59,106 nucleotides of DNA from Candidatus Hydrogenedentales bacterium (GTDB lineage Bacteria; Hydrogenedentota; Hydrogenedentia; Hydrogenedentales; SLHB01): assembly GCA_041859045.1 (NCBI GenBank), contig JBHELB010000051.1:1-59106 (forward strand). The letters run 5' to 3'. Below are positions 141 through 38,438 of the stretch, in pieces. The notes under the pieces are model-generated. The model had not been told where the DNA came from and ran no database searches. It saw nothing but the letters and a program-made list of their open reading frames with translations. How positions within the stretch are numbered: position 1 is the first letter of the stretch; each line of letters starts with the position of its first letter. The translations under genes were made by a program, and so were the position numbers.

Positions 141-809
141 ATGGGCGCAGGTATCCAACACTATGATCTGCCCTTGGGAAGAAATGTGCTCTGGGCTGGA
201 ACAATGAATCAGGACGAGACAACCAAATCCCTCTCAGACAAGGTCCTTGATCGAGGGATTGTAATCAACTTCCCCCGGCCGACCACCCTTGAAAGACGCC
301 GTCAGCTGAAACCGTTGGGCGATCAAGCTCCTCTGCTGTCTCGTAAACTGTGGGAGAGTTGGTGGTGCAGAGAAAGCAAATTCAACGACGATCAGATTTT
401 GCCGTTCAAGGGTTTCATCGAAGACATGAACACCTCGCTGTCCAAGGTTGGCAGAGCTCTGGGGCACAGGGTGTGGCAATCCATCGAATACTACATGTCC
501 AATTATCCTGATGTGCTGGAAGCTCAGAGAAACAACGATGACGCAAGCTTGGTCAAAGCGATGAAAGTCGCATTTGAAGACCAGCTTGTTCAGAAGGTTA
601 TGCCTAAGCTGCGTGGTATTGAAACCCGAGGCAAATCCAAATCGGACTGCCTTGATAAAATTCGAACTCAGCTGGTGAATGACAACTATACAATAATCGA
701 TGACTTTGATCTGGCTTGTGAGTTTGGTTACGGTCAGTTCATCTGGAACAGTGCCAATTACTTAAAAGATGATGAGGCTGTGAACGGTCAGGAAAATGCG
801 GAGAACTGA
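141..809 (+). CDS. AAA+ ATPase C-terminal region (McrB/MoxR-like sensor-1 and arginine-finger segment); likely 5'-truncated or frameshifted copy
   Basis: 222-aa ORF. The motif 'NVLWAGTMNQDETTKSLSDKVLDRGIVINF' resembles the McrB 'IIGTMN...D.AL.RRF' sensor-1/Arg-finger segment. All three forward frames in nt 1-140 contain stops, so no Walker A/B is encoded in-frame upstream. The stop TGA at 807-809 lies 3 nt before the ATG of the next gene. Confidence 0.5.
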   Translation: MGAGIQHYDLPLGRNVLWAGTMNQDETTKSLSDKVLDRGIVINFPRPTTLERRRQLKPLGDQAPLLSRKLWESWWCRESKFNDDQILPFKGFIEDMNTSLSKVGRALGHRVWQSIEYYMSNYPDVLEAQRNNDDASLVKAMKVAFEDQLVQKVMPKLRGIETRGKSKSDCLDKIRTQLVNDNYTIIDDFDLACEFGYGQFIWNSANYLKDDEAVNGQENAEN

Positions 810-812
810 TAG

Positions 813-3800
813 ATGGCGGAACCGCAGAAATATAAGCTAACAGCCAGACAGAAACGCATGCTGTCCGATTACCATCAACGTCAGCATGCAACTGCCCAGA
901 CTGTTGAACCATCCATCGGAGCTATTGATTCTGTCGAGTCTATTTACAAGGCATTAAACGGCAGGGATGAGATAAAGGCCAAGGCGCTTTTGATGCTGAT
1001 GCTGCGCAGCTGGCTGACGGAAGTATCGAGCTTCGACCCTGTTTCCGGGCATGCCCTACATACCGGCATTGTCGATTTCTTGGATGATGTGGCGAAATCG
1101 TTGCAGGATGCGTCACCTGAGGGTGAGATAAAAGACCGTATCTATCGAATTGTATCGCACACGAAGGAAGCTGTTCTGGCAATTATGGAGCATACTCGGG
1201 ATAAGATATTACGAGAGCATGCCATGCTGCCAATACATGCGGCAAGAGAGGTTGACAGCAACAGTGTTCAATGGCTCAGCCGTCAGCCGGGAAGAACACT
1301 CCGCGAGAAGCTTTCCGGTAAACCTTATATGAAGGCTGTCAGGCGGAGACCCAGTGTTGATACGGCAGAAAACCGACTATTAAGAGCTTTTCTATTCCGG
1401 CTGGAGCAGATTCTGATTGAAAGACAGAATGTTTTGTCTGCAGCGACAGAAGAGACCTGTGAGGAACTGCTTGTTTCCCTCCAACGCTGGCTTAGAACTG
1501 AAGATGCCGCTGAAATTGGCAATTGGGGCAATCTTCCGCCCAACAACACGCTTCTTCAGGATAAGCGTTATCGAAAAGTCTGGGATGGTTGGCTCTGGCT
1601 CCAAGCTATCGATGAGCAGATCACATGGGATAGCAAAAGAGTCCATAGGGATATCCTCAGTGTTATTTATTGGAATACGCTTTCCTTGCTCAACCATAGT
1701 GGTCGCTTTCGGACAGTTCAGCAACCGGTCGGTCTCGACTATGATAATTTTTCTATAGCCCCAGAATTACCCGTCCGAGGATATTTGTTTCCTGCGTGCG
1801 ACGCAAAGATCAGGGGGAAGATTAAGTTCATAAAACCCGATAAGTCATTCGGGTTTATCACTTCTGATGATGGAAGAGACCTGTATTTCAATCCATACAA
1901 TCTATCCCAAAAATTAGACATTAATTCACTATCGGCTGGAGATGAAGTTTCTTTTGTTATCGGCAGCAACCGACAGGGCGAATGTGCTGACGACATAACC
2001 CTTCCAGCAGGAATCATCCCTGTCGATTTCAATTTGACGGGGGATAAATGGAAGATACAAGTCGGTGAGGATAAGTATTTATTACAAATCGTTTCCGGGA
2101 AACTTGTTATTGAGCAAGCTCAGGGCGCAAAAAAGAAATTAAAAATAGAGCCAACAACTCTCAAAGAGATACCGAAGGCGATACTGTCATTAGTCACGGA
2201 TGCTCCGTTTGAATACTCTGCGCCAACAAATAATCAAAGTGGTCCAATACGGATGGATAGCTCTGTTGTTGACCTGTGTTCTATCCGTCCGACCTTCACG
2301 AATAATACAGGCTCTCAGGCGCACCTGCCGTTCAGGTTGCTTCAGCAGCACTGGCCTTTAAATATTAATGGAGGGGTGGTAATAGACTGCGGTTACGCAA
2401 AATCAATCGCCCTGCATTCCGATATTGAAACGGTCAGCATGAGGAGCCTCTTTTCACATAGCTCAACACTACCAGATGCCACCAAAAGCAGTGCATCGAT
2501 GTTTTTTACTAAAAAGTTGAGTGACTATATCAAGGCAGACAAGCTGACCTATCTTGTCCCTGATTGGGGCAATGACTTCGATCTGGAGGGAATAAGAAAA
2601 AGCGTCAATTTTTATTTTGATGAATCGACACCGCTTCCCAAAAGCATAGCTGCTATCTTTGCATGGCAATCATCGAAGAAATTTGTACAGGACAGAGTCC
2701 GAGAGAATGATTTTGTGCTGGTGGTTGATTCATTTGACGGCGGCATTTCAATAACCCCAGTTCAGGCAATATACCAAAAAGAGCTGGACGAAATATTGCC
2801 TGAGACACAAGGAATGAGCTGGGAAAGACATCCTACGGTTATTGTGCCAAACAGAGGCATTCATGCTGCCATGGCCCGCAATCTTGACCGTAATGGCTGC
2901 CAGACATCTGAAGAACTCCTCCATTTGTTCGGCTTCGATGGTTTAGCCAGTGATTCCGGTGAGGTGTCCTTTGTGAAGGAGGATCACTGGTATCACTTAC
3001 CAGGTTCTATTCGGGAGGCTCTGACTCAGGATTTAGATCTCAACATATTATCAAACTACGCTATCTGTGACTGCCTGAACTCTACAAACAGGGATTGTCG
3101 TGGAGTTGGTGTCTTTATCCTGCCTCTTGAGGATACAATCAGGAAACCTGATGATGTGCGAAAGGATTACAAGTGGCTGGGGTCTGCATGGTCACCAATA
3201 AAAGGCTGCCAGACTTTAAACAGATGGCAGGAGGAAGTTGGTGACATTGCCCTTTGGCGTGATCATCTGCCTGAGCTGTCGATCAGAATTGTACGTGATG
3301 GGCACTTTGAAAATTTCTATCTGGTAAAAGATGCGACAGTAACACCGAAACGTGGCAGAACTGTGAATATACCAGTAGAAGAGTCATTTACTCTTCCAGC
3401 CGGACAAACGTATTACAGTTTTCCTCTGCAGCAGGGAGAAGGCAATAAAGAACTGCAGTTTGTTGCATACCTGAAGTCGCCAGCCTTCCCTTTAAAAAAG
3501 GCCACGGATTGCAAGCTGAAGATGACCTATACCTATGGAGCTGACGATCCATACGAACTGAAATTCATTCCGTTGGATTCTGCGGAAGCAGGTTTCAAAT
3601 CTATTCGGGTTGAATGGCGCTCTGCATCAGATAGCGAAGCTGCTGATCTTGAAAACTTGCCGGTTCCAGATTTCCCTGCCCGTAAAAGCTGGTCCGATTT
3701 TCAAAAATTTCCGAAAGAAGACGGCAAGAGCTTCTCTGACCTTCTGGACTGGGTTGAACGGGACATGAAAAAGATTTCTGATATTGCACATTATGGCCGT

Positions 3801-4850
3801 GTCTCGGGAACTATCCCCAAGTGGATTGATAAAGGAAACAGCAATGTATTCTGTTTCATTGACGACGTGTTTATACACAAGTCATCGTTACGTTTAAGTT
3901 CTGAGCAGGAGTTACCTCGACCCGGAGACAGCCTTTCGTTCTATAAAACAGAAGGTGATCACGGAAAATTTTCCGCAGAGGATGTTGTAATTGGAAACTC
4001 TCAGCCGACTCGTTGTTTTTTGGCTAGTAGCCTCCGATTTCCTGCATTAACCATCTGGAATCATGGCCACTCCCTTTCAGAGTCAGATGTGCCTGACCAT
4101 TTTAGAAACGCGATATTCGAAGGTACACAAAAGATCATTTCAATAATTGAGTCAGAAAATATGCCGGACACCCTTAAAGAGGAGCTTTTCTTCTTTCTGT
4201 GCTGTCTACATAAGGATGCCCCGGGGATTGTTGGTTCCAGGCTCCTTTATGCCGTGAAGGATAAAAAGCTTTTGCTGAGATACTACAAGAATATTGCTTT
4301 CGCCATCGGTAATGCCGAACTGCCATACCAACAAGAGCTGTTGGAGAATGTCATCGACCCCATTGATAATGAGGGCCTAACCAGATCCATTACTATGGAG
4401 GTTTTGTCGATAGCCCTTTGGCGTTCCAAAACACTGATCAACAAATTGACTAAAGAGGAGCTCGGAGCTTTATCCAGGAACTTATATGGCTGCCTTGAGT
4501 TCGACCTCCAGAAGGTTGTCAATGATGGGAAAGGATATCAGATAGCAACTCTCTGTAAGCACTTGGAGCTTCTTCTTGCTTTGCTGAGAAGCCGAGGGAT
4601 TGAGGGCGAAGAGTTCAAAATGATTTTCGCCCCGGATAATGATCTGACCAAAAAATATGTGACCTTGGTAGATGATGTTTCCAGAATAGTGATCGATAGT
4701 GACATCGAGCTGAAGTCCCGAATCAGCCTTCAAATTGAAAAGCCGGAAATGTTCCACAACACACCTGACCTGCTATACGCATTGCGGATGTACCTAACGG
4801 GTGACTCTGGAGCTAATGCAATCTCGATTTCAGGGGTAAGTGATGAATAA
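813..4850 (+). CDS. 1345-aa multidomain protein with two cold-shock (CSD/OB-fold) nucleic-acid-binding domains; partner of the AAA+ gene (McrC position); function unknown
   Basis: Long uninterrupted ORF in an AT-richer region. CSD 1 is 'GKIKFIKPDKSFGFITSDDGRDLYF...GDEVSFVIGSNRQGECADDI', a CspA-like RNP1 'KSFGFI'. CSD 2 is 'GTIPKWIDKGNSNVFCFIDDVFIHKSSL...GDSLSFYKTEGDHGKFSAEDVVI'. I could not assign the remaining ~1200 aa to any family. Confidence 0.8.
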   Translation: MAEPQKYKLTARQKRMLSDYHQRQHATAQTVEPSIGAIDSVESIYKALNGRDEIKAKALLMLMLRSWLTEVSSFDPVSGHALHTGIVDFLDDVAKSLQDASPEGEIKDRIYRIVSHTKEAVLAIMEHTRDKILREHAMLPIHAAREVDSNSVQWLSRQPGRTLREKLSGKPYMKAVRRRPSVDTAENRLLRAFLFRLEQILIERQNVLSAATEETCEELLVSLQRWLRTEDAAEIGNWGNLPPNNTLLQDKRYRKVWDGWLWLQAIDEQITWDSKRVHRDILSVIYWNTLSLLNHSGRFRTVQQPVGLDYDNFSIAPELPVRGYLFPACDAKIRGKIKFIKPDKSFGFITSDDGRDLYFNPYNLSQKLDINSLSAGDEVSFVIGSNRQGECADDITLPAGIIPVDFNLTGDKWKIQVGEDKYLLQIVSGKLVIEQAQGAKKKLKIEPTTLKEIPKAILSLVTDAPFEYSAPTNNQSGPIRMDSSVVDLCSIRPTFTNNTGSQAHLPFRLLQQHWPLNINGGVVIDCGYAKSIALHSDIETVSMRSLFSHSSTLPDATKSSASMFFTKKLSDYIKADKLTYLVPDWGNDFDLEGIRKSVNFYFDESTPLPKSIAAIFAWQSSKKFVQDRVRENDFVLVVDSFDGGISITPVQAIYQKELDEILPETQGMSWERHPTVIVPNRGIHAAMARNLDRNGCQTSEELLHLFGFDGLASDSGEVSFVKEDHWYHLPGSIREALTQDLDLNILSNYAICDCLNSTNRDCRGVGVFILPLEDTIRKPDDVRKDYKWLGSAWSPIKGCQTLNRWQEEVGDIALWRDHLPELSIRIVRDGHFENFYLVKDATVTPKRGRTVNIPVEESFTLPAGQTYYSFPLQQGEGNKELQFVAYLKSPAFPLKKATDCKLKMTYTYGADDPYELKFIPLDSAEAGFKSIRVEWRSASDSEAADLENLPVPDFPARKSWSDFQKFPKEDGKSFSDLLDWVERDMKKISDIAHYGRVSGTIPKWIDKGNSNVFCFIDDVFIHKSSLRLSSEQELPRPGDSLSFYKTEGDHGKFSAEDVVIGNSQPTRCFLASSLRFPALTIWNHGHSLSESDVPDHFRNAIFEGTQKIISIIESENMPDTLKEELFFFLCCLHKDAPGIVGSRLLYAVKDKKLLLRYYKNIAFAIGNAELPYQQELLENVIDPIDNEGLTRSITMEVLSIALWRSKTLINKLTKEELGALSRNLYGCLEFDLQKVVNDGKGYQIATLCKHLELLLALLRSRGIEGEEFKMIFAPDNDLTKKYVTLVDDVSRIVIDSDIELKSRISLQIEKPEMFHNTPDLLYALRMYLTGDSGANAISISGVSDE

Positions 4851-5100
4851 TCGGGAACCGAACCGGCGTCCGAAAACCGGATTCGAAGTTGTTGCGGCTG
4901 GACGCCGGGTATCCGGTTTTACTGCAAACCTGTCACCCTCGTCCGGTGCCGGGAAATCAGGGGAGAAATTCGTTTCTCTGGTCGGGTTGGCGGGAAGTGG
5001 TTGTGTGAGATGATTTCGGCGTTTATTATCAATGAGTTACGAGGAGCGCGGGCTCTGAGACTGATTTGCGGTAGGTCGTCGTTCCCTCCACCATTTCTCT

Positions 5101-5295
5101 TTTTCGTCAGGGAATTTTTCCCGGGCTGCCGATACGTCGTGAAACTCGATGGTAACTGGGGCCCAGTTTTCTGTTGAGCAATTCGAAGATGTCAAAAAGC
5201 GACTTTCACTCTTTCAGGTCGATCCTGATGGGATTCTCCGTAATGGGCTTGTACGCCTTCTCCTCTTCGGTCAGTTCTCTTTTTTCAGGCACCAT
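5101..5295 (-). pseudogene. Degraded third copy of the barstar-like immunity gene (premature TGA plus internal 66-nt deletion plus 3' truncation)
   Basis: The reverse complement reads 'MVPEKRELTEEEKAYKPITENPIRIDLKE*', where TGA replaces the TGG (Trp) of 'KEWKSLF' in the intact copies. The region 5201-5330 is near-identical to 6061-6154. The segment encoding the 'GENW.AIWD.AWGF' helix is missing (66 nt, in-frame) relative to copy 2. Confidence 0.6.
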
Positions 5296-5394
5296 GGACT
5301 CCTTTCAAACGAACTGGTTGCCATGCGATTTCCGTAAACATCCGGTAATGACGGCTCATGAAGAGGGATAAACCGGCGTTCGGGAACAGGAGCT

Positions 5395-5724
5395 TCAGTC
5401 GATCACCACATGCTCAATGCGGGGGCACTCTTTCTGGAGGCGTTCAAATACCTCCAACATGATTTTCACGTCCCTGGGGAATCTCTCCCGGGCTGCCAAT
5501 ACGCCATGAAACTCGATGGTAACTGGATTTTCGGAGAATCCCCAAGCCATGTCCCAGATCGCGTCCCAGTTCTCACCGCAGTCACCGGGGAGTCCCAGTT
5601 TTCTCTTGATCAATTCGAAGATATCAAAGCGCGATTGCCATTCTTTCAGATCGATCTCAATAGGATTCTCCGTGATTGGTTTGTAGGGCATCATTTCGTC
5701 GCTGAACTCGCTGTCCTCAGTCAT
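5395..5724 (-). CDS. Barstar-like ribonuclease inhibitor (immunity protein), copy 2
   Basis: 109 aa. 'LGLPGDCGENWDAIWDMAWGF' matches barstar '[21 protein letters not shown]', the barnase-binding helix with the conserved Asp. It is a paralog of copy 1. Confidence 0.85.
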   Translation of the reverse strand: MTEDSEFSDEMMPYKPITENPIEIDLKEWQSRFDIFELIKRKLGLPGDCGENWDAIWDMAWGFSENPVTIEFHGVLAARERFPRDVKIMLEVFERLQKECPRIEHVVID

Positions 5725-5821
5725 GGCGTCTCTCTCCCGCTCACTTATGGTCCGATTTCCGTGAACATCCGATAATGACGGCTCATGAAGAGCAACAAAC
5801 CGGCGTTTGGGAACGGGGGTG

Positions 5822-6154
5822 TCAGTCGATCACCACATGCTCAATCCAGGGGCACTCTCTCTGGAGGCGCCCAAATACCTTCAACATGATCTCCACATCC
5901 TCGGGAAATTTCTCCCGGGCTACCGATACGCCATAGAACTCAATTAGAACAGGGTCGGGACTGAATCCCCAGGCCAGGTCCCAAATCGCGTTCCAGTTCT
6001 CACCACAGAAATCGGGTAAACCCAACTTCCTCTTGAGCAACCCGAAGATGTCAAAAAGCGACTTCCACTCTTTCAGGTCGATCCTGATGGGATTCTCCGC
6101 AATGGGCTTGTACGCCTTCTCCTCTTCGGTCAGTTCTCTTTTTTCAGGCATCAT
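5822..6154 (-). CDS. Barstar-like ribonuclease inhibitor (immunity protein), copy 1, immediately downstream of the toxin
   Basis: 110 aa containing 'CGENWNAIWDLAWGF'. It lies 22 nt downstream of the barnase-like toxin gene on the same strand. Confidence 0.85.
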   Translation of the reverse strand: MMPEKRELTEEEKAYKPIAENPIRIDLKEWKSLFDIFGLLKRKLGLPDFCGENWNAIWDLAWGFSPDPVLIEFYGVSVAREKFPEDVEIMLKVFGRLQRECPWIEHVVID

Positions 6155-6176
6155 GGACTCCTTTTAAACGAACTGG

Positions 6177-6809
6177 TTATAGCCCGATTTCTGTAAATGT
6201 CAGGTAATGGTCATCCGTGAAGAAGACCAACCCATCGTTTGAAAACAGAATCCTCTTCTCGTTTCGATAGCCATCAGTATAATCGACATCCGCCTCATAC
6301 CACACTCGTCCAGGCGCATCAGGCAGTTTTCCTTTATCGTTATCGAAGACATCCCCGCCAATCATACGCGCGGGCAGAACCTCAGCCAGATTCCCTTTTT
6401 TTGAATCCCAGCCCAATCTCCTGGCTTCTTCCTTCGAGATGTAGTACTCGGGGAGTTCGCCATGGACCAGCAGCCAGTAGTCCGCGCCCTCTTCGCCTTT
6501 GTCGGTAGCATGTCCCGCCTGAATAAACGACAACGCCTCGAGTGTGCAACGGCAATTCGGGTGCAATGGCGGCCCGTCCGGTGGGTTCTCGTTCACGGCG
6601 TATATCGTGCCGTGACGCTCCCGGCACGCGGCGCAAGTTGCAGGCCCTAACCTGGCGCACCAGTTCTTCCAGCGCGTACTTTCTCGGGTGGGGCCGCCCG
6701 TTTTTGCACTTCGATCATAGGCTAGAACGATTTGTATCGCTCTCCCCAGACGAATGAGACTGACTCTTCCAGCCGTATCGACTCCACCACTTCCCGTCAA
6801 TTGCGCCAT
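6177..6809 (-). CDS. Polymorphic toxin: N-terminal phage MuF-like region (HPNCRC motif) fused to a barnase-family ribonuclease domain
   Basis: The C-terminal ~110 aa align to barnase. 'YISKEEARRLGWDSKKGNLAEVLPARMIGGDVFDNDKGKLP' matches 'YITKSEAQALGWVASKGNLADVAPGKSIGGDIFSNREGKLP'. 'YEADVDYTDGYRNEKRILFSNDGLVFFTDDHYLTFTEI' matches 'READINYTSGFRNSDRILYSSDWLIYKTTDHYQTFTKI'. Equivalents of the catalytic K27, E73, R83, R87 and H102 are present. The N-terminal part has 'CAACRERHG...PPLHPNCRC'. Confidence 0.85.
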   Translation of the reverse strand: MAQLTGSGGVDTAGRVSLIRLGRAIQIVLAYDRSAKTGGPTRESTRWKNWCARLGPATCAACRERHGTIYAVNENPPDGPPLHPNCRCTLEALSFIQAGHATDKGEEGADYWLLVHGELPEYYISKEEARRLGWDSKKGNLAEVLPARMIGGDVFDNDKGKLPDAPGRVWYEADVDYTDGYRNEKRILFSNDGLVFFTDDHYLTFTEIGL

Positions 6810-7336
6810 CTGCCGGCCTTCTCCTTCTGTGCAACCTGCGCGCCACGACCGCGACGCCGTTGCATTTGTCAGGGGTATCCAATGCGCCCCTATAGACTGT
6901 GTTACCGCGTTTCACTCTCAGGGGTGTGCACTGCGAAAACCACTGCCTCAAAGGGAAGAGGGAATCCACGTCAATTTTGCTTCCTCTCATGCTGAGGGTG
7001 AGAAGCTTGTGGCGTGTTTGTAAGTGCCTAATTTTCAATATGTTACTCTGATACCAGAGCAAAGATAGCCGCCCGCGTGAGAAATTCGGGCTCTCCACCA
7101 GTCGTAGTTCGATTGCGTGCAACGCAGAAGAGGCAGGAGGGCTTCAGATCGGCATGTGTTCTATGCTCATTTCCCAAACGCAAGCGCATACATCCAAGAT
7201 TGCGTCGGGACACACTGTGACCGCGATTCGTTTTGACGAAGATCAACGCGCGTCCGTTTTTGAGTGCTTCCTACAATCCGAATCCGGCCGCGCTTTTGTA
7301 GACAGGCATTTCCGAATGCGTCGATCATGAAGTGCG

Positions 7337-7885
7337 CTAGATCGGCGCTTCTTCGATCTCGGCAAACCGCGGGCGAAGGGCGCCTGCTTCGATGGTCGTA
7401 TGCCGCTCGTGAGGAAGCACGTTGCGTGACCCGAGCAAGACCTCATGGTGGTTCACTTCGCGCAGAAACACCCACACGCAGCGGCCGTCGCTCTTGCTGG
7501 TCACCACGGGACGCAAATGGCGGCGCATATGCTGTCGGCCCGCGTGCGGGGTCACATGAAATTGGTGCTCCGTGCTGTTCACGAATCCCACAATCCCATA
7601 CGGCCGCTTGGGAGTGTAATCCACCGCCGCCCCGGGAAAGGTCTGACATAATTTGTAGAGTTCCGCGGAGAGATTTCGCGTCGAGCAGACCGTGCTGCGA
7701 TAACGCCCGTGCGCGGGGTCGCACACCACTATCTCGACTATTGCGTCGGGAAAATCTTGGTACAACCCTTCGGCCAGATAGGAGGCTGCCCGGTGGATGT
7801 CTTCGAATTCGGCATGCATGGCTCTGTCCTCGTGGCCATCCGCATCCGTGACGCGTCTCTCTTGCTCGCCGCTAAATTCTACCAC
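7337..7885 (-). CDS. Hypothetical protein (182 aa), same strand and upstream of the toxin gene
   Basis: ORF in a GC-rich region with no recognisable motif. It is retained only because it sits in an otherwise gene-free stretch, co-oriented with the toxin. Confidence 0.3.
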   Translation of the reverse strand: MVEFSGEQERRVTDADGHEDRAMHAEFEDIHRAASYLAEGLYQDFPDAIVEIVVCDPAHGRYRSTVCSTRNLSAELYKLCQTFPGAAVDYTPKRPYGIVGFVNSTEHQFHVTPHAGRQHMRRHLRPVVTSKSDGRCVWVFLREVNHHEVLLGSRNVLPHERHTTIEAGALRPRFAEIEEAPI

Positions 7886-8043
7886 CCTATCGCGAAAACA
7901 CGCAAGACAATAATTTGTGGAAATAATGGCAAAACAGGGGTTGCAATTTTATGCCCTGTGTGCTATGGTCTCTATGACATCTAGGTGTTGGATGTAACTC
8001 ATACAACCGGATTTCACAGTGGCGCGCTGAAAGAAAGCGCTAA

Positions 8044-34609: not shown

Positions 34610-37600
34610 CTAGCGAATATACCGTTTCTTCAGATTCAGCAGCGCGTTGATCACAATCTGGGCATCCCGGACGTCGATTCGGTTGTCGTTGTTGATATCG
34701 ACCATCTCCGCGCTCTTCTCCGTCGACAGCCCCAACACCGCATTGATGATCAACTGAACGTCCTGCACGTTGATCGCGCCGTCCCGATTGACGTCCGACC
34801 CCTTCGTACCGGCGCCGATGGTGACCGTTGAAGACGTCACCGCCTCTCCGGAAGGATTGCTCACCGCCGTCGGCTTAACGATGCAATACCAGCGATCTCC
34901 AGGACGCGTCGCGTCCGGCGATACGTCGCGGCGATTCGTCAACGCGGGAATAAGCGAGTTATTTCGCACCCAGTAAATCGTCGTTTGATCCACGTTCAGA
35001 CTGCCGTCCGGATACGAAATATCGAAGGAAACGCGAAGCCGATCGTCATCGATCGGATGTGCCGGCGTAATCTGCACCGTCTCGACCACCGGCGGCCGCT
35101 GGAGATCGTCGACATTGAAGTACACGTCCTGCGTCGTCGTGGCCGTCCCGAGCTTGGCCTTCACCTGCATCGTGTACGCCCCGCCGCTCGACGCGGTGGT
35201 CTGCCACACAAACCGTGCCTGGCCATTCCCCATCGGCGTATACGCCGATCCCGGAGGCAAGGAAGTCATCGTGATCTCCGGGGCGCCCCCAATACCATGC
35301 GCCGTGACCACAAACTCGATGCGTTCGCCCTCAACAGCGGTCTGCATGGGAATCGGATCGATGCTCAGCGCGCTCGGCGCAGGCATGCTCGTGAAATCGC
35401 TCACCAGCCGCAGTTGAGACACCGGATCCTTCGGAACGCCTCGACCATCCGAAAGCCCACAGATGCCTTCAGTCAGAGCCAAATCTTTGTACGACATCCG
35501 GATATGTCCGCTGAAGAACAGCTCAAGCTCGATCGTGCTCCCCAGCGAGGCTCCCAACTCCGGAACTTGGTTAAACACCACCACCAAGCGATCGTCCATC
35601 AGCTTCCACAAAACCTGTCCGCCGCTGTCCGGCGAAAGCCAGCCCCACAACAACGCAATCCGTGGAAGATCGAAATAGTTGGAGTACGTGGGAACCGCGT
35701 TAAGCGCGTCAAACTGTCCCACATTCTTTTGCGCAATCCCTTCCTCGGGCGCAAGGTAGCCCGCCGCCGAAATCACCCAATTCTTGTGGAATTTTCCGAA
35801 GAACGGCACCGGTTGCGGCAGTTCGATCTGCACCATCCCAAAATCGGGCACGTTCAGCGGCGAACACTGCTCCGGCGCCACCGGCAGGTTTCCGCCCGGC
35901 AACGCCGTCACGCTCACCGAATACGTGGAGTGATTGACATACCCTTCGGCGTTGCCCGAGGCCTGCGCCAGCAACATATCCGCGGTCGGGCTAAACATGA
36001 TCTGCGTGTCGTCCAGATCGGGCGGCGACGTCGAAGAAAACGGTTCCGACAAATGATTCGATGTCGCCGCGCCCGAGCGGGCACGCGCATAGACGATCTC
36101 CGTGTACCCCAGCAAACTGGAGCGGGACATCGCGGTGTAATAATACTCGCTTCCCTCGGACGCAGTGGTGTCCAGGAAACGCTGGCCCGTGCCCTCGTAC
36201 AGGACCGTCGCAAACGGGTCCGCTTCCGATTCGGCGAAGCTTCCCATCTTGCGCAGTATCTTGACTGGGCCCGCGCCGCCACCGATACCTGGAGTCTTCC
36301 AAGTAAGCACGATGACGTTTGACCCCGTTCGCGGCAGGGCACGCAAATCCTCGACCGGCGCCGACACGATGGGAGTGTAGACGTGCACCGCGGACGCCGC
36401 CAACACGACGTTGACGATTTCCTCTTCCGAAAGGGTTGCGTCCTGGGAAGCCGCCTGAACCAAGGCATTGCCCAGATCGCGGTACTTCGAACTCATCGTC
36501 AAAAACTGCGTCTGAACGGTATAAAAGACCTGTGCCGACTTGATCAACCCCATGCCAGGCACCGCGTACCCGTTGTGTATGTCCCCGTCGGCCATGAGGT
36601 AAAACAGCTTGTTGCCCACACCGGAATTATGATGAACACCGCCGTTATCCTCCGACCCGCGATACCATCCCCTGCCGAGGTAGGTGTCAGGCATCGGAAT
36701 ATACCCAGTGTCGTAAAACCAATTCTCCATCGACGGCGGATCGGCCATATCGCGTATCGCGCCGCCCGCAATATCCTCGCCCATCAACCACCGCACACCG
36801 GACGAATCGTTTCCACTGCCGTTCACCAGATCAACCGCCTCGCCCCAGATATCGGACAGCGACTCGTTGATTGCGCCCGATTCCCGGTAGTACTCGAGGT
36901 CTGACGTGGTATAAGTCACGCCATGCGTCAACTCGTGGGCAATCACATCGTCGGCGGTAAACCCCTCGCCAAAGAACATTCGGTTGTAGTAGCTGCTTTC
37001 CTCGAGCGAACCGTTGGCGTTCTTGAATCCGCTCCTCCAAAACGCATTTTGATACGGACACGAACTGTACCAGGGGCAGTACCGCACGGTGGCACTCATC
37101 GCGAGACCGAAGTTGTCGATACTGTCGCGATTGTGGTTCTCGAAATAGAAGTCGTAGGTGTCTCCGTAGTAATCGTACGCCTCGTCCGCGTCCTGAAGGC
37201 CCGAGTTCGGGCTGTTCTCGATGCGCACCAAGGTTCCCGGAATCATATCTTCGTTGCCCGCGTCATAAATCTTCCGGTTTCGCGCTTCGTAACGTAGCGA
37301 ATAGTGAACCATGTTCTCGCCGGTCCGGGCATCGAGCAGCACGCGTTCCTGCACCGGCGAAGAATCGGTGGCCCCTTGCACGATCAGGCTCCACGCCAAA
37401 CGAATCGTGCCGGTCCGGTCTTGCAGCGTGGGATCGTAAATGACGAGTTCCGGCGTGGTCGCCTCTAGCGCGCCCGCATTGCGGTACAACCCCGTCATCA
37501 GCTCGATCGCGCGCTTCTTCGCCGTCGCGGCCGACAACACCGGCGTCGTCGAAAAGCCGGAGGTGTCGAGCTTGGATGTTCCGCACGCGAGCACACTGGA

Positions 37601-38044
37601 CAACGAAACAACCGCGCCGTCCGCGTCGAGGTTCACCTTCGCCGACGCGCCGTGCACCGGAATCCCCGCATACGTCTGCCCAAGACGAACCGTGGTGATC
37701 GTGCCCGCACTGCGCGTGTCTTCGACCGTCAACGCCGTCCGCGGACTATCCAGCCCAAATGCCGTCGCGTGATCCATGATGAACCCTTGCGCGATCGACT
37801 GCGGCGTGGGCAAACTCTTCGCCGCCCCGGCCGGAGACGTAAACACGGCCCCGCGCGGCGCGCCCAGGAAACGCAGATTGCCCGCCTTGTCCTGCTGGAC
37901 GTTTGCTGGCTCCGTCGCTTCCACCCCGCGCATCGTCATGAGCACCTGCCCCACATCCGCGCGCCCGCCCGCGGGAAGGCTCTGAGCCATCGCCGTTACG
38001 GCCACTGCCAGTAGGACTGTCGAGACAATCACGGCACCACGCAT
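34610..38044 (-). CDS. Secreted M4 (thermolysin-family) zinc metalloprotease with C-terminal dockerin-type repeats
   Basis: Signal peptide 'MRGAVIVSTVLLAVAVTAMA'. 'VIAHELTHGVTYTTSDLEYYRESGAINESLSDIWGE' contains HExxH plus the downstream Glu. The C-terminal 'DVNRDGAINVQDVQLIINAVLG...DINNDNRIDVRDAQIVINALL' is a duplicated Ca-binding dockerin motif. Confidence 0.85.
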   Translation of the reverse strand: MRGAVIVSTVLLAVAVTAMAQSLPAGGRADVGQVLMTMRGVEATEPANVQQDKAGNLRFLGAPRGAVFTSPAGAAKSLPTPQSIAQGFIMDHATAFGLDSPRTALTVEDTRSAGTITTVRLGQTYAGIPVHGASAKVNLDADGAVVSLSSVLACGTSKLDTSGFSTTPVLSAATAKKRAIELMTGLYRNAGALEATTPELVIYDPTLQDRTGTIRLAWSLIVQGATDSSPVQERVLLDARTGENMVHYSLRYEARNRKIYDAGNEDMIPGTLVRIENSPNSGLQDADEAYDYYGDTYDFYFENHNRDSIDNFGLAMSATVRYCPWYSSCPYQNAFWRSGFKNANGSLEESSYYNRMFFGEGFTADDVIAHELTHGVTYTTSDLEYYRESGAINESLSDIWGEAVDLVNGSGNDSSGVRWLMGEDIAGGAIRDMADPPSMENWFYDTGYIPMPDTYLGRGWYRGSEDNGGVHHNSGVGNKLFYLMADGDIHNGYAVPGMGLIKSAQVFYTVQTQFLTMSSKYRDLGNALVQAASQDATLSEEEIVNVVLAASAVHVYTPIVSAPVEDLRALPRTGSNVIVLTWKTPGIGGGAGPVKILRKMGSFAESEADPFATVLYEGTGQRFLDTTASEGSEYYYTAMSRSSLLGYTEIVYARARSGAATSNHLSEPFSSTSPPDLDDTQIMFSPTADMLLAQASGNAEGYVNHSTYSVSVTALPGGNLPVAPEQCSPLNVPDFGMVQIELPQPVPFFGKFHKNWVISAAGYLAPEEGIAQKNVGQFDALNAVPTYSNYFDLPRIALLWGWLSPDSGGQVLWKLMDDRLVVVFNQVPELGASLGSTIELELFFSGHIRMSYKDLALTEGICGLSDGRGVPKDPVSQLRLVSDFTSMPAPSALSIDPIPMQTAVEGERIEFVVTAHGIGGAPEITMTSLPPGSAYTPMGNGQARFVWQTTASSGGAYTMQVKAKLGTATTTQDVYFNVDDLQRPPVVETVQITPAHPIDDDRLRVSFDISYPDGSLNVDQTTIYWVRNNSLIPALTNRRDVSPDATRPGDRWYCIVKPTAVSNPSGEAVTSSTVTIGAGTKGSDVNRDGAINVQDVQLIINAVLGLSTEKSAEMVDINNDNRIDVRDAQIVINALLNLKKRYIR

Positions 38045-38438
38045 TACGCTGTTCTCCTGACAAAGCTGTACGCCCACGCACCGGCCCTAGAGGCCAGTCC
38101 ATTCACCTTACCCGATCGTGCCGTCATCCCGCTCGGAATTCCGCCCAAAAGCGTGCCGAAACGTCCCTCAATTCCGAACACAAATGGGGACAACACCACA
38201 TGTAATCTTGTACACCACGCCCGGATTTAAGTCAAGAATTTTCTTCCACTTAAGCACAATGCGCCTCCGTCGCTCATCCCCTCGACCCTCATCGATTCCG
38301 CTACCGAATGGCAATGCGACAAGACAGCCGACTCTCAGAGGTGGCGTCTACAACGCCTCGAAAGTGCGAATTCTGGCACACGCCCGCTTCGCGCAGCGCA
38401 ACCCAGCCCACGAACTAACCTCCTAAGGCCTTATTGGG

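What the first reader, a model, noticed from the sequence alone, without database searches (positions are those of the whole stretch)
5101..6809. Barnase/barstar polymorphic-toxin locus with a tandem immunity array and orphan toxin-tail remnants
The - strand toxin (6177-6809) ends in a catalytically complete barnase domain. It is followed by three barstar-like genes in tandem. Each repeat unit (~430 bp) begins with a remnant of the toxin 3' end. Upstream of barstar copy 2, the reverse complement of 5758-5799 reads 'MSRHYRMFTEIGP*'. Upstream of the copy-3 remnant there is a similar tail at 5340-5375. The true toxin ends '...DDHYLTFTEIGL*'. A conserved 'aaccggcgtYYgRgaac' motif marks the downstream edge of each unit at ~5371, ~5797 and, in a more divergent form, at 4867 just after the giant gene. 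This is the signature of recombinational C-terminal toxin-cassette displacement with accumulation of orphan immunity genes. Barnase-type toxins with barstar arrays appear only rarely in annotations outside Bacillus-like contexts.
Basis: partly seen in the sequence, partly recalled or inferred. Interest (0 to 1): 0.7.

Follow-up and report, generated by a model that had tools for sequence, protein, structure and literature searches.

The report
Barnase toxin with recombining barstar array
This is a small RNA-cutting toxin gene (barnase type) followed by two working copies and one dead copy of its antidote gene (barstar) in an uncultured Hydrogenedentota bacterium; it is a real but fairly ordinary example of a known kind of bacterial toxin/immunity locus, and it shows clearly how such antidote arrays grow and reshuffle.

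Summary
On the minus strand, 6177-6809 encodes a 210-aa protein with a complete barnase domain. Two intact barstar genes follow (5822-6154, 5395-5724), then a dead third copy (5097-5295).

Each downstream unit of about 430 bp starts with a 22-codon remnant of the toxin's 3' end. The "conserved motif" is simply the 5' part of that remnant. A fourth, badly decayed junction probably lies at 4806-4890.

No alternative toxin domain has been displaced. The units look like tandem segmental duplications of [toxin tail + barstar], later reshuffled by unequal crossover and gene conversion. Hydrogenedentota relatives carry the same arrangement.

The short MuF-barnase/barstar module is common: at least 566 loci across species genomes, mostly Clostridia. 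Seven of 78 surveyed loci carry diverged barstar arrays, so it is not rare.

Across 80 loci, the toxin residue at barnase position R59 and the adjacent barstar residue at E76 swap charge together. This marks cognate pairs. Later array copies are often of the opposite class, which supports extra immunity at the family level. How the toxin is delivered is unknown.

The parts
6177..6809 (-). Toxin gene (210 aa). It has three parts: a clade-specific N-terminal helix (aa 1-44), a mini-MuF zinc ribbon (aa about 45-97), and a barnase RNase domain (aa about 105-210).
   Evidence: Pfam Ribonuclease and Phage_Mu_F. PDB barnase E about 1e-33. AF2 pLDDT above 93 for aa 42-210 and a barnase superposition at 1.1-1.7 A. 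The N-terminal extension is conserved in frame in the Hydrogenedentota relatives. dN/dS is 0.12-0.4 against relatives.
6540..6665 (-). Fragment of the MuF (SPP1 gp7 / Mu F) head-morphogenesis domain, with the CxxC...HPNCRC zinc-ribbon motif (aa 49-90).
   Evidence: It matches Pfam PF04233 profile positions 68-111 of 112 (30.9 bits, cutoff 29.6). It matches TIGR01641 positions 63-106 of 109 (37.4 bits, below the 39.65 cutoff). PHROG head-morphogenesis families match only at their positions about 250-297. C59, C62 and C88 are invariant, and H83 and C86 are at least 90% conserved, in 69 homologues.
6186..6485 (-). Barnase catalytic domain (aa 109-208). The loop equivalent to barnase residues 57-60 reads D-N-D-K, where barnase has S-N-R-E.
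   Evidence: K27, E73, R83, R87 and H102 are retained. R59 is replaced by D and E60 by K.
6177..6245 (-). Authentic toxin tail (FSNDGLVFFTDDHYLTFTEIGL*). This is the segment that is repeated in front of each downstream barstar unit.
   Evidence: Alignment of the three units; tblastn.
5822..6154 (-). Barstar 1 (110 aa), the immunity gene directly after the toxin. At the barstar positions it has W38/D39 retained, N35 and R76.
   Evidence: Pfam Barstar E 7e-13. PDB barstar E 4e-8. Interface residues. It is a mosaic: the N-terminal half is 93% identical to L001 barstar 1, and the C-terminal half is 92% identical to L001 barstar 2.
5745..5813 (-). Toxin-tail remnant 2: 22 codons plus a stop, FPNAGLLLFMSRHYRMFTEIGP*.
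   Evidence: Orthologous remnants occur in L001/L002/L010 and L092.
5395..5724 (-). Barstar 2 (109 aa), intact. At the barstar positions it has W38/D39, D35 and R76.
   Evidence: Pfam Barstar E 1.7e-14. PDB barstar E 2.6e-7. dN/dS against barstar 1 is 0.19 with dS about 0.95, so this is an old duplicate kept under purifying selection.
5321..5386 (-). Toxin-tail remnant 3 (FPNAGLSLFMSRHYRMFTEIA...). Its stop codon is lost. It runs into a copy of the toxin-barstar 1 junction.
5097..5295 (-). Barstar pseudogene 3. Its 5' part is about 97% identical to barstar 1 and its 3' part resembles barstar 2. It has TGA at codon 30 (5208-5206), a 65-nt deletion of the barnase-binding helix, and a replaced 3' end.
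   Evidence: The collinear relative L092 also starts a third unit with the same N-terminus.
4806..4890 (-). Probable fourth barstar-flank/toxin-tail junction, heavily decayed. It overlaps the 3' end of the convergent 1345-aa gene.
   Evidence: The pattern match at 4861-4877 is expected 0.07 times per window. The gapped local alignment to remnant 3 scores 17.5 against shuffles of 9.4 +/- 1.8 (1 of 1000), and 0 of 1000 control segments reach it. It is not significant under stringent gap costs.

Best explanation
The locus is a stand-alone toxin/immunity module of the 'short MuF-barnase + barstar' family. It sits in a low-GC, strain-variable island of a Candidatus Hydrogenedentota chromosome.

The 210-aa protein is an active-type barnase RNase. 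It is preceded by only the last third of the phage MuF domain, a zinc ribbon.

The barstar gene directly downstream is its cognate inhibitor. It blocks the active site through the conserved W38/D39 helix. It also matches the toxin at a charge-swapped secondary contact: the toxin has D at barnase position 59 and the barstar has R at position 76.

The array arose by tandem duplication of a unit made of the last 66 nt of the toxin gene, the intergenic junction and barstar. This probably happened at a short microhomology between the toxin codons ILFSN and the barstar 3' flank. Unequal crossover and gene conversion between units have remodelled the array ever since.

The outcome is two diverged, selected barstar genes, mosaic alleles, one dead chimeric copy and a decayed fourth junction.

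Extra barstars most likely widen protection against variant barnases made by competitors. Shown: domain identities, catalytic and interface residues, repeat anatomy, shared ancestry with relatives, purifying selection and interface covariation. Inferred: RNase toxicity, neutralisation, the duplication mechanism, the ecological role and, above all, how the toxin leaves the cell or is delivered.
For: - Domains and fold.
- Repeat anatomy.
- The same toxin-barstar-remnant-barstar layout occurs in Hydrogenedentota MAGs at 74% toxin identity (L001/L002/L010). A collinear three-unit relative, L092, aligns at 81% DNA identity. The array is therefore ancestral and not a one-off.
- Barstars are N-/C-module mosaics among paralogues and orthologues.
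- dN/dS is 0.12-0.4 for the toxin and for both barstars.
- Family survey: at least 566 loci, typically toxin + 1 barstar. Seven of 78 have arrays of 2-6 barstars that are 47-100% identical.
- Interface covariation (toxin position 59 / first barstar position 76): basic/acidic 49, basic/basic 0, acidic/basic 18, acidic/acidic 2. Fisher p = 1e-14, not corrected for phylogeny.
- This covariation lies on the native Arg59-Glu76 salt bridge of barnase-barstar (PMC4207830 Table 1).
- Later array copies are often of the opposite charge class (L001, L012, L014, L075).
- TI gene order and barnase-barstar pairs as simple polymorphic-type systems: Zhang et al. 2012.
- Recombination among tandem immunity paralogues has a described precedent in esaG/tipC (PMC9484751).
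Against: - Nothing here has been tested experimentally.
- The protein has no signal peptide. No secretion or phage-packaging genes are linked to it. An exported competition toxin is therefore unproven.
- In this window both intact barstars are of the same charge class as the resident toxin (R76 with D59). The second copy could simply be redundant or a dosage copy.
- Some close relatives have lost the catalytic His (L005/P0005, and probably P0004), and L092 has a 5' frameshift. The module decays in some lineages.
- The microhomology junction rests on about 15 nt.
- The covariation test is not corrected for phylogeny.
Confidence: 0.62

Rival explanations
1. A new toxin C-terminus/immunity cassette recombined into the toxin gene and pushed the former C-terminus and its immunity gene downstream. 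This happened repeatedly. The remnants would be what is left of the earlier toxin ends, and the downstream barstars would be true orphans.
For: - Tail remnants precede each downstream barstar.
- Single-copy Hydrogenedentota loci L004 and L005 carry the B-type barstar N-terminus found in barstar 2; L090 and L091 do not (they are A-type). A B-type ancestor would therefore make the barstar next to the toxin here the newcomer.
- In L001 the downstream barstar is of the opposite charge class to the resident toxin.
- The toxin loop 57-60 differs sharply between close relatives.
Against: - Only 22 codons are repeated, and they derive from the same barnase lineage. The L001 remnant reads FMDSHYLTFTEVGL* against the toxin's FFTDDHYLTFTEIGL*.
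- There is no displaced toxin body and no alternative toxin type.
- The specificity loop (positions 57-60) lies outside the repeated segment.
- The junction carries the barstar 3' flank seen at single-copy loci.
- Arrays in Clostridia have 10-45 nt spacers and no tails at all.
Confidence: 0.15
2. It is an intracellular toxin-antitoxin or abortive-infection type module of a defence island. Barnase would be held in check by barstar and released on phage attack or stress. The extra barstars would be dosage or back-up copies. The toxin is never exported.
For: - It lies next to a McrBC-like system (an AAA fragment at 141-809 and a DUF2357 + cold-shock-domain giant at 813-4850) in a low-GC island.
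- The toxin has no signal peptide.
- No secretion or phage genes are linked to it, either here or in 124 flanking ORFs of relatives.
Against: - Neither the toxin nor the barstars match anything in PADLOC.
- The gene order is toxin then immunity, which is typical of bacteriocin/polymorphic systems rather than type II TA (Zhang 2012).
- Adjacency to the McrBC-like genes is specific to this genome; relatives have other neighbours.
- Charge-class switching and arrays holding non-cognate classes are easier to explain by conflict with foreign toxins.
Confidence: 0.15
3. It is a decaying leftover of a prophage MuF-toxin gene. The N-terminal two thirds of MuF and the phage were lost. What remains is drifting and has no present function.
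For: - Only the C-terminal third of the MuF core is present.
- Relatives have a phage-type AAA_24 fragment or an integrase nearby.
- One barstar copy is dead.
- Relatives show a lost catalytic His or a frameshift.
Against: - The short architecture is the norm in hundreds of species, with intact ORFs of 165-210 aa that start just before the zinc ribbon.
- The catalytic residues are intact here.
- The toxin and both barstars are under purifying selection.
- The mini-domain and barnase are modelled together with high confidence.
Confidence: 0.08

Closest known systems
Barnase-barstar of Bacillus amyloliquefaciens (PDB 1BRS, 1A2P; Pfam PF00545/PF01337)
   Same: - The RNase domain is about 55% identical to barnase and has the same fold.
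- K27, E73, R83, R87 and H102 are all conserved.
- The inhibitor has the GENxxAxWD helix with W38/D39.
- The gene order is toxin then inhibitor.
   Different: - There is no Sec signal peptide.
- A MuF zinc ribbon and an extra helix precede the RNase domain.
- The R59-E76 salt bridge is charge-reversed (D59/R76).
- The guanine-recognition loop is changed (SNRE to DNDK).
- The inhibitor is present as a tandem array.
MuF polymorphic toxins of temperate phages (Jamet et al. 2017, PMC5576092; Zhang et al. 2012, PMC3482391)
   Same: - MuF-derived sequence is fused to a C-terminal toxin of at least 100 aa.
- A small immunity ORF follows the toxin gene.
- Zhang et al. list MuF among the contexts of Tox-Barnase with Imm-Barstar.
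   Different: - Only profile positions 68-111 of 112 of the MuF core are present.
- The protein is 210 aa, not several hundred.
- No portal, terminase or capsid genes occur in the 59-kb contig or next to relatives.
- Barnase is not mentioned in the main text of Jamet et al. (0 occurrences).
Tandem paralogous immunity arrays remodelled by homologous recombination (esaG and tipC of T7SS systems; Garrett et al. 2022, PMC9484751)
   Same: - A string of non-identical immunity genes lies downstream of a nuclease toxin.
- Conserved blocks mediate recombination.
- Chimeric, lost and expanded copies occur.
   Different: - The toxin and immunity families are different.
- No T7SS is present.
- The array is much shorter.
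- One homology block here is a copied piece of the toxin gene itself.
Orphan CdiA-CT/CdiI and Rhs-CT/RhsI cassettes (Poole et al. 2011, PMC3150448)
   Same: - Fragments of the toxin gene's 3' end, followed by immunity genes, lie downstream of the main toxin.
   Different: - From my own knowledge of that literature (the paper was listed but not opened here), orphan cassettes there carry whole alternative toxin domains with their own cognate immunity.
- Here only 22 codons of the same toxin are repeated, so the result is not a reservoir of alternative toxins.

Membership tests
Barnase / microbial guanyl-specific RNase (PF00545) | Sequence and fold match to barnase | tested here: met
   Pfam E 1.5e-12. 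PDB barnase E about 1e-33. The AF2 model superposes at rmsd 1.1-1.7 A with TM 0.87 to barnase/binase.
Barnase / microbial guanyl-specific RNase (PF00545) | Catalytic set: E73 (general base), H102 (general acid), R83, R87, K27 | tested here: met
   All five are present in the alignment to barnase. The base-recognition loop 57-60 differs (DNDK against SNRE), so base preference may differ.
Barnase / microbial guanyl-specific RNase (PF00545) | RNase activity and toxicity | not testable with these tools
   This needs expression and an enzyme assay.
Barstar (PF01337) | Sequence match, with the barnase-binding helix carrying W38 and D39 | tested here: met
   Pfam E 7e-13 and 1.7e-14. PDB barstar E 4e-8 and 2.6e-7. 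W38/D39 are present in both intact copies. The third copy has this helix deleted.
Barstar (PF01337) | Cognate pairing with the adjacent RNase | tested here: met
   The evidence is indirect. Across 80 loci, toxin position 59 and adjacent barstar position 76 co-vary in charge (counts 49/0/2/18, Fisher p 1e-14). These positions form the known R59-E76 contact. Binding itself was not tested.
MuF polymorphic toxins (Jamet 2017) | Complete MuF head-morphogenesis domain at the N-terminus | tested here: not met
   Only Pfam profile positions 68-111 of 112 and TIGR01641 positions 63-106 of 109 match, the latter below its cutoff. PHROG MuF families match only around their positions 250-297.
MuF polymorphic toxins (Jamet 2017) | Gene located in a (pro)phage head/packaging module beside portal and terminase genes | tested here: not met
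   No phage structural genes occur in the 59-kb contig. None appear among 124 flanking ORFs of relatives or in the contexts seen.
MuF polymorphic toxins (Jamet 2017) | C-terminal extension of at least 100 aa with a toxin domain, followed by a small immunity ORF | tested here: met
   A barnase domain of about 105 aa is followed by 110-aa and 109-aa barstars.
Polymorphic toxin systems sensu Zhang/Aravind 2012 | The same N-terminal module joined to different C-terminal toxin domains | tested here: inconclusive
   The mini-MuF search found 264 hits, nearly all the same barnase family. A few distant proteins have mini-MuF at the N-terminus with glucosaminidase, phage-tail lysozyme or unknown C-termini (P0245, P0246, P0231, P0237). 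None is close to this clade.
Polymorphic toxin systems sensu Zhang/Aravind 2012 | Stand-alone cassettes of alternative toxin C-termini with their own immunity genes downstream | tested here: not met
   Only 22-codon tails of the same toxin are present. tblastn finds no other toxin fragment in the window.
Polymorphic toxin systems sensu Zhang/Aravind 2012 | Toxin-then-immunity gene order, with extra immunity genes | tested here: met
Tandem immunity-paralogue arrays evolving by homologous recombination (EsaG type) | Non-identical tandem immunity paralogues with shared homology blocks and chimeric copies | tested here: met
   Barstars 1 and 2 are 71% identical. N-/C-module swaps occur between paralogues and orthologues. 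There is a chimeric pseudogene. The first-unit type differs in L092.
Type II toxin-antitoxin module | Antitoxin upstream of the toxin, with a labile DNA-binding antitoxin | tested here: not met
   The order is toxin first. Barstar has no DNA-binding domain. Stability and regulation cannot be tested here.

The most novel reading that the evidence does not exclude
The 45-residue MuF zinc ribbon, without the rest of MuF and without a linked phage, may be a self-sufficient 'hitch-hiking' tag. It would load a chromosomally encoded barnase (and, in distant relatives, cell-wall hydrolases) into capsids of unrelated resident phages or gene-transfer-agent-like particles. In that case the barstar arrays, with their two charge classes at the 59/76 contact, would be an immunity library against toxins delivered by particles. 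This would be a trans-acting delivery route for polymorphic toxins that has not been described.
Probability: 0.12. Interest if true: 0.7.

Novelty: new member of a known kind. Interest (0 to 1): 0.35.

Why it matters
- Barnase-barstar is the textbook tight protein-protein complex. Here natural homologues show a repeated charge reversal of the R59-E76 salt bridge. Immunity arrays mix the two classes. This gives a simple, testable specificity code for a widespread toxin/immunity family.
- The locus is a clean small-scale example of how an immunity array is born and then reshuffled. A copied piece of the toxin gene remains at every junction.
- The finding places this toxin/immunity module in the uncultured phylum Hydrogenedentota.
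- It raises a question: what does a MuF fragment do in a toxin that is not in a phage?
- None of this changes the current understanding of such systems.

Tried and rejected
- Exact-product look-ups of the toxin and of barstar 2 found nothing on record.
- The metagenome scan with the single toxin found no relatives.
- A word-indexed search with the mini-MuF segment alone found no candidates. It was replaced by the full HMMER search.
- PADLOC has no model matching the toxin or the barstars.
- Rfam at E <= 1 over 4500-8500 gave only a chance snoRNA-like hit, and there are no tRNAs in the window. There is therefore no RNA element and no tRNA integration site.
- Promoter and terminator scans were at background levels.
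- I looked for MuF N-terminal remnants upstream of the toxin. The in-frame upstream sequence has stops, and the 182-aa ORF at 7337-7885 has no family match.
- I considered the 4861 motif as a terminator or recombination site. It has only a 4-bp stem and was not pursued.
- I considered that the tail remnant 'MSRHYRMFTEIGP' is a translated micro-ORF. There is no evidence for this: it drifts like non-coding sequence and its stop is lost in unit 3.
- No other barnase or barstar copy exists in the window.
Full report
**What is there**

All features below are on the minus strand. The ORF at 6177-6809 encodes 210 aa. Pfam finds a Ribonuclease (barnase) domain at aa 118-208 (E 1.5e-12). It also finds a partial Phage_Mu_F match at aa 49-90 that covers only profile positions 68-111 of 112.

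Against solved structures, aa 109-208 match barnase and binase at E about 1e-33. An AlphaFold2 model built on 69 homologues has mean pLDDT 87.5, with more than 93 from residue 42 onward. Its C-terminal half superposes on barnase/binase at 1.1-1.7 A with TM 0.87.

Alignment to barnase shows K27, E73, R83, R87 and H102 all present. The 57-60 loop reads DNDK instead of SNRE.

The MuF piece is a CxxC...HPNCRC zinc-ribbon motif:
- C59, C62 and C88 are invariant in the family, and H83 and C86 are at least 90% conserved.
- TIGR01641 matches below its cutoff, at positions 63-106 of 109.
- PHROG head-morphogenesis families match only around their residues 250-297.

So only the last third of the MuF core is present.

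**The immunity genes**

The ORFs at 5822-6154 (110 aa) and 5395-5724 (109 aa) are Pfam Barstar (E 7e-13 and 1.7e-14). They match solved barstar at E 4e-8 and 2.6e-7. Both keep the binding helix GENWxAIWD with W38 and D39.

A third copy at 5295-5097 is dead:
- TGG has become TGA at codon 30.
- A 65-nt deletion removes exactly the barnase-binding helix.
- The 3' end is replaced by unrelated sequence.

**Repeat anatomy**

The units repeat every 427 and 432 nt. Each downstream unit begins with a copy of the toxin's last 22 codons.
- Toxin: FSNDGLVFFTDDHYLTFTEIGL*
- Unit 2: FPNAGLLLFMSRHYRMFTEIGP* (5813-5745)
- Unit 3: FPNAGLSLFMSRHYRMFTEIA..., with the stop lost (5386-5321)

tblastn gives E 0.003 and 0.007 for the two remnants.

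It is not an independent signal.

The more divergent copy at 4861-4877 is unlikely by pattern statistics (0.07 expected per window). With permissive gaps, 4806-4890 aligns to the flank plus remnant 3 better than 999 of 1000 shuffles and better than all 1000 control segments. It fails a stringent local alignment. I treat it as a probable fourth, decayed junction. It overlaps the end of the convergent 1345-aa gene.

**Source and setting**

A 100% identical GspE-like protein is recorded on a 59,106-bp contig, so the window is a whole contig. Its named relatives are Candidatus Hydrogenedentes/Hydrogenedentota.

The rest of the contig is ordinary chromosome:
- a radical-SAM/PqqD RiPP-like cluster;
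- a type II secretion/pilus cluster;
- regulators and sugar metabolism genes.

It holds no phage structural genes.

The first 7 kb have 42-52% GC, against 55-62% further on. Contigs from sister samples that are 100% identical stop at 8105 or 8192. The toxin locus and the neighbouring McrBC-like genes therefore lie in a strain-variable island.

**Relatives**

The closest toxins are also in Hydrogenedentota MAGs.
- L001/L002/L010 (74% identity) have the same toxin-barstar-tail remnant-barstar layout, with a 98-nt spacer.
- L092 is collinear with window 6968-5265 at 81% DNA identity. It has toxin, barstar, remnant, barstar, remnant and the start of a third barstar whose N-terminus matches the window's dead copy.
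- L090, L004, L005 and L091 have one barstar.

The array, tails included, is therefore inherited and not a private accident of this genome.

**How the array formed**

The barstars are mosaics. Window barstar 1 has the N-terminal half of L001 barstar 1 (93% identity) and the C-terminal half of L001 barstar 2 (92%). L092 has a B-type barstar directly after the toxin, where the window has an A-type. The window's dead copy is A-type at its 5' end and B-type at its 3' end.

The 15 nt after each barstar stop (ctcctgttcc.ga.c) are also found after single-copy barstars (L090, L005). They resemble the toxin codons for ILFSN (attctgttttcaaac), which is where the tail copy begins.

This pattern is what a tandem duplication of [tail + barstar] at a microhomology would produce, followed by unequal crossover and gene conversion.

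It is not what displacement of toxin cassettes predicts. No toxin body or alternative toxin is left behind. The repeated piece also excludes the specificity loop.

Both intact barstars and the toxin are under purifying selection (dN/dS 0.12-0.4). The two barstars are old duplicates, with dS about 0.95.

**The wider family**

Proteins of 165-210 aa with mini-MuF plus barnase are numerous. At least 566 loci were confirmed in one-genome-per-species contigs, mostly Oscillospiraceae and other Clostridia.

In 78 surveyed non-Hydrogenedentota loci:
- the rule is toxin plus one barstar;
- seven have 2-6 tandem barstars that are 47-100% identical, including six copies in L075;
- three have a double-length barstar ORF;
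- spacers are 10-45 nt, with no tail remnants.

Flanking genes are unrelated housekeeping or regulatory genes. No phage head, portal or terminase families appear among 124 flanking ORFs.

A full HMMER search with the mini-MuF alone found mostly this same family. It also found a few distant proteins in which the mini-MuF precedes a glucosaminidase, a phage-tail lysozyme or unknown domains.

**Specificity**

In the barnase-barstar complex, Arg59 makes native contacts with Glu76 and Asp35 of barstar, while His102, Arg83 and Arg87 contact Asp39 (PMC4207830 Table 1).

Across 80 dereplicated toxin/first-barstar pairs:
- a basic residue at toxin position 59 goes with an acidic residue at barstar 76 in 49 cases, and never with a basic one;
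- an acidic residue at 59 goes with a basic residue at 76 in 18 cases, and with an acidic one in 2.

Fisher's test gives p = 1e-14, not corrected for phylogeny, but the swap recurs in distant lineages.

Within the Hydrogenedentota clade the seven loci behave as follows.

| Locus | Toxin position 59 | First barstar position 76 |
|---|---|---|
| Window | D | R |
| L004 | D | R |
| L001 | R | D |
| L005 | R | D |
| L090 | G | D |
| L091 | G | D |
| L092 | S | R |

The four loci with a charged residue at position 59 all fit the rule. The other three have no charge there, so the rule cannot be applied to them.

Later array members are often of the opposite class:
- L001: R toxin, second barstar R76;
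- L012 and L014: D toxins, later barstars D/E76;
- L075: a mixture.

This supports the idea that arrays store immunity to non-self variants. In the window itself both intact barstars carry R76, which is compatible with the resident D59 toxin. They differ at position 35 (N against D).

**Mechanism and what remains open**

The most likely reading is a toxin/immunity conflict module. Its RNase is neutralised in the producer by the adjacent barstar, and its extra barstars broaden protection.

The delivery route is unknown:
- there is no signal peptide;
- there is no linked secretion system or phage;
- PADLOC has no matching model.

Zhang et al. 2012 list Tox-Barnase with Imm-Barstar in many phyla, with MuF among the associated contexts. 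They describe simple barnase-barstar pairs as an incipient toxin-immunity arrangement. Jamet et al. 2017 define MuF toxins by a full MuF domain in prophage head modules. This locus fails that definition on both counts. The nearest described analogue for the array dynamics is recombination between tandem esaG/tipC immunity paralogues (PMC9484751).

**Verdict**

The sequence observation is sound apart from details. The 'cassette displacement' mechanism and the rarity claim are not supported.

The locus is a new member of a known kind. Two modestly interesting by-products emerged. One is the copied toxin tail that marks every duplication junction. The other is the natural charge-swap code at the barnase 59 / barstar 76 contact.

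Noticed in passing
window 141-4850 (+): A McrBC-like pair converges on the barstar array. The first gene is a 222-aa AAA fragment with a weak PADLOC PDC-M26A match. The second is a 1345-aa protein with a DUF2357 (McrC-like) domain and an embedded cold-shock domain, which also matches the retron Se72 effector CSD model weakly. GC is 42-50%, against 55-62% for the contig beyond 7 kb.
   Followed up: partly
window 9503-17721 (+): A RiPP-like cluster. It holds a 73-aa small ORF (9503-9724), a PqqD-like 116-aa ORF (9910-10260), a B12-binding radical SAM, a radical SAM with PqqD and Fer4_12 domains, an FtsX-like permease, a CAAX protease and an ABC exporter.
   Followed up: no
window 8105-8192; loci L093-L095: Three contigs from sister sequencing runs are 100% identical to the window. 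All of them end at 8105 or 8192, just inside the toxin side of the 365-aa gene. This suggests an assembly break at the edge of a strain-variable island.
   Followed up: partly
loci L012-L089 (family-wide): Barnase position 59 and barstar position 76 reverse charge together across the family (49/0/2/18). This is a natural charge swap of the classic R59-E76 salt bridge. Barstar D35 is often S or N when the toxin has D59.
   Followed up: yes
L075:6524-8224; L037:1252-1866, L072:5222-5833, L089:6498-7175: One Clostridia MAG has six tandem 91-aa barstars with 10-nt spacers, 70-100% identical to each other. Three other loci encode a double-length (203-225 aa) barstar ORF, possibly a fused tandem pair.
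   Followed up: partly
L005:10001-10420 (P0005); P0004; L092:1-252: Close relatives show decay of the toxin. L005 has G in place of the catalytic H102. P0004 has a scrambled C-terminal tail. L092 has a frameshift in the N-terminal extension. Their barstars stay intact.
   Followed up: partly
L001:6979-7176, L090:1770-2078, L004:6138-7640: Fragments of a phage-type AAA_24 gene lie directly after the barstar(s) in two Hydrogenedentota relatives. An integrase and an HTH regulator lie upstream in another. These hint at an old mobile-element origin.
   Followed up: no
P0245, P0246, P0231, P0237, P0253: In these short proteins the same MuF zinc ribbon sits at the extreme N-terminus. It is followed by a Ser/Thr-rich linker and then a glucosaminidase, a phage-tail lysozyme or an unknown domain.
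   Followed up: partly
window 34610-38077 (-): A 1155-aa M4 (thermolysin-type) metallopeptidase has a C-terminal dockerin domain. This is unexpected outside cellulosome-producing Firmicutes.
   Followed up: no
window 6810-7336: About 530 nt upstream of the toxin have no convincing gene. The 135-aa ORF at 6715-7122 overlaps the toxin start and has no family match. The DNA is conserved in L092.
   Followed up: no
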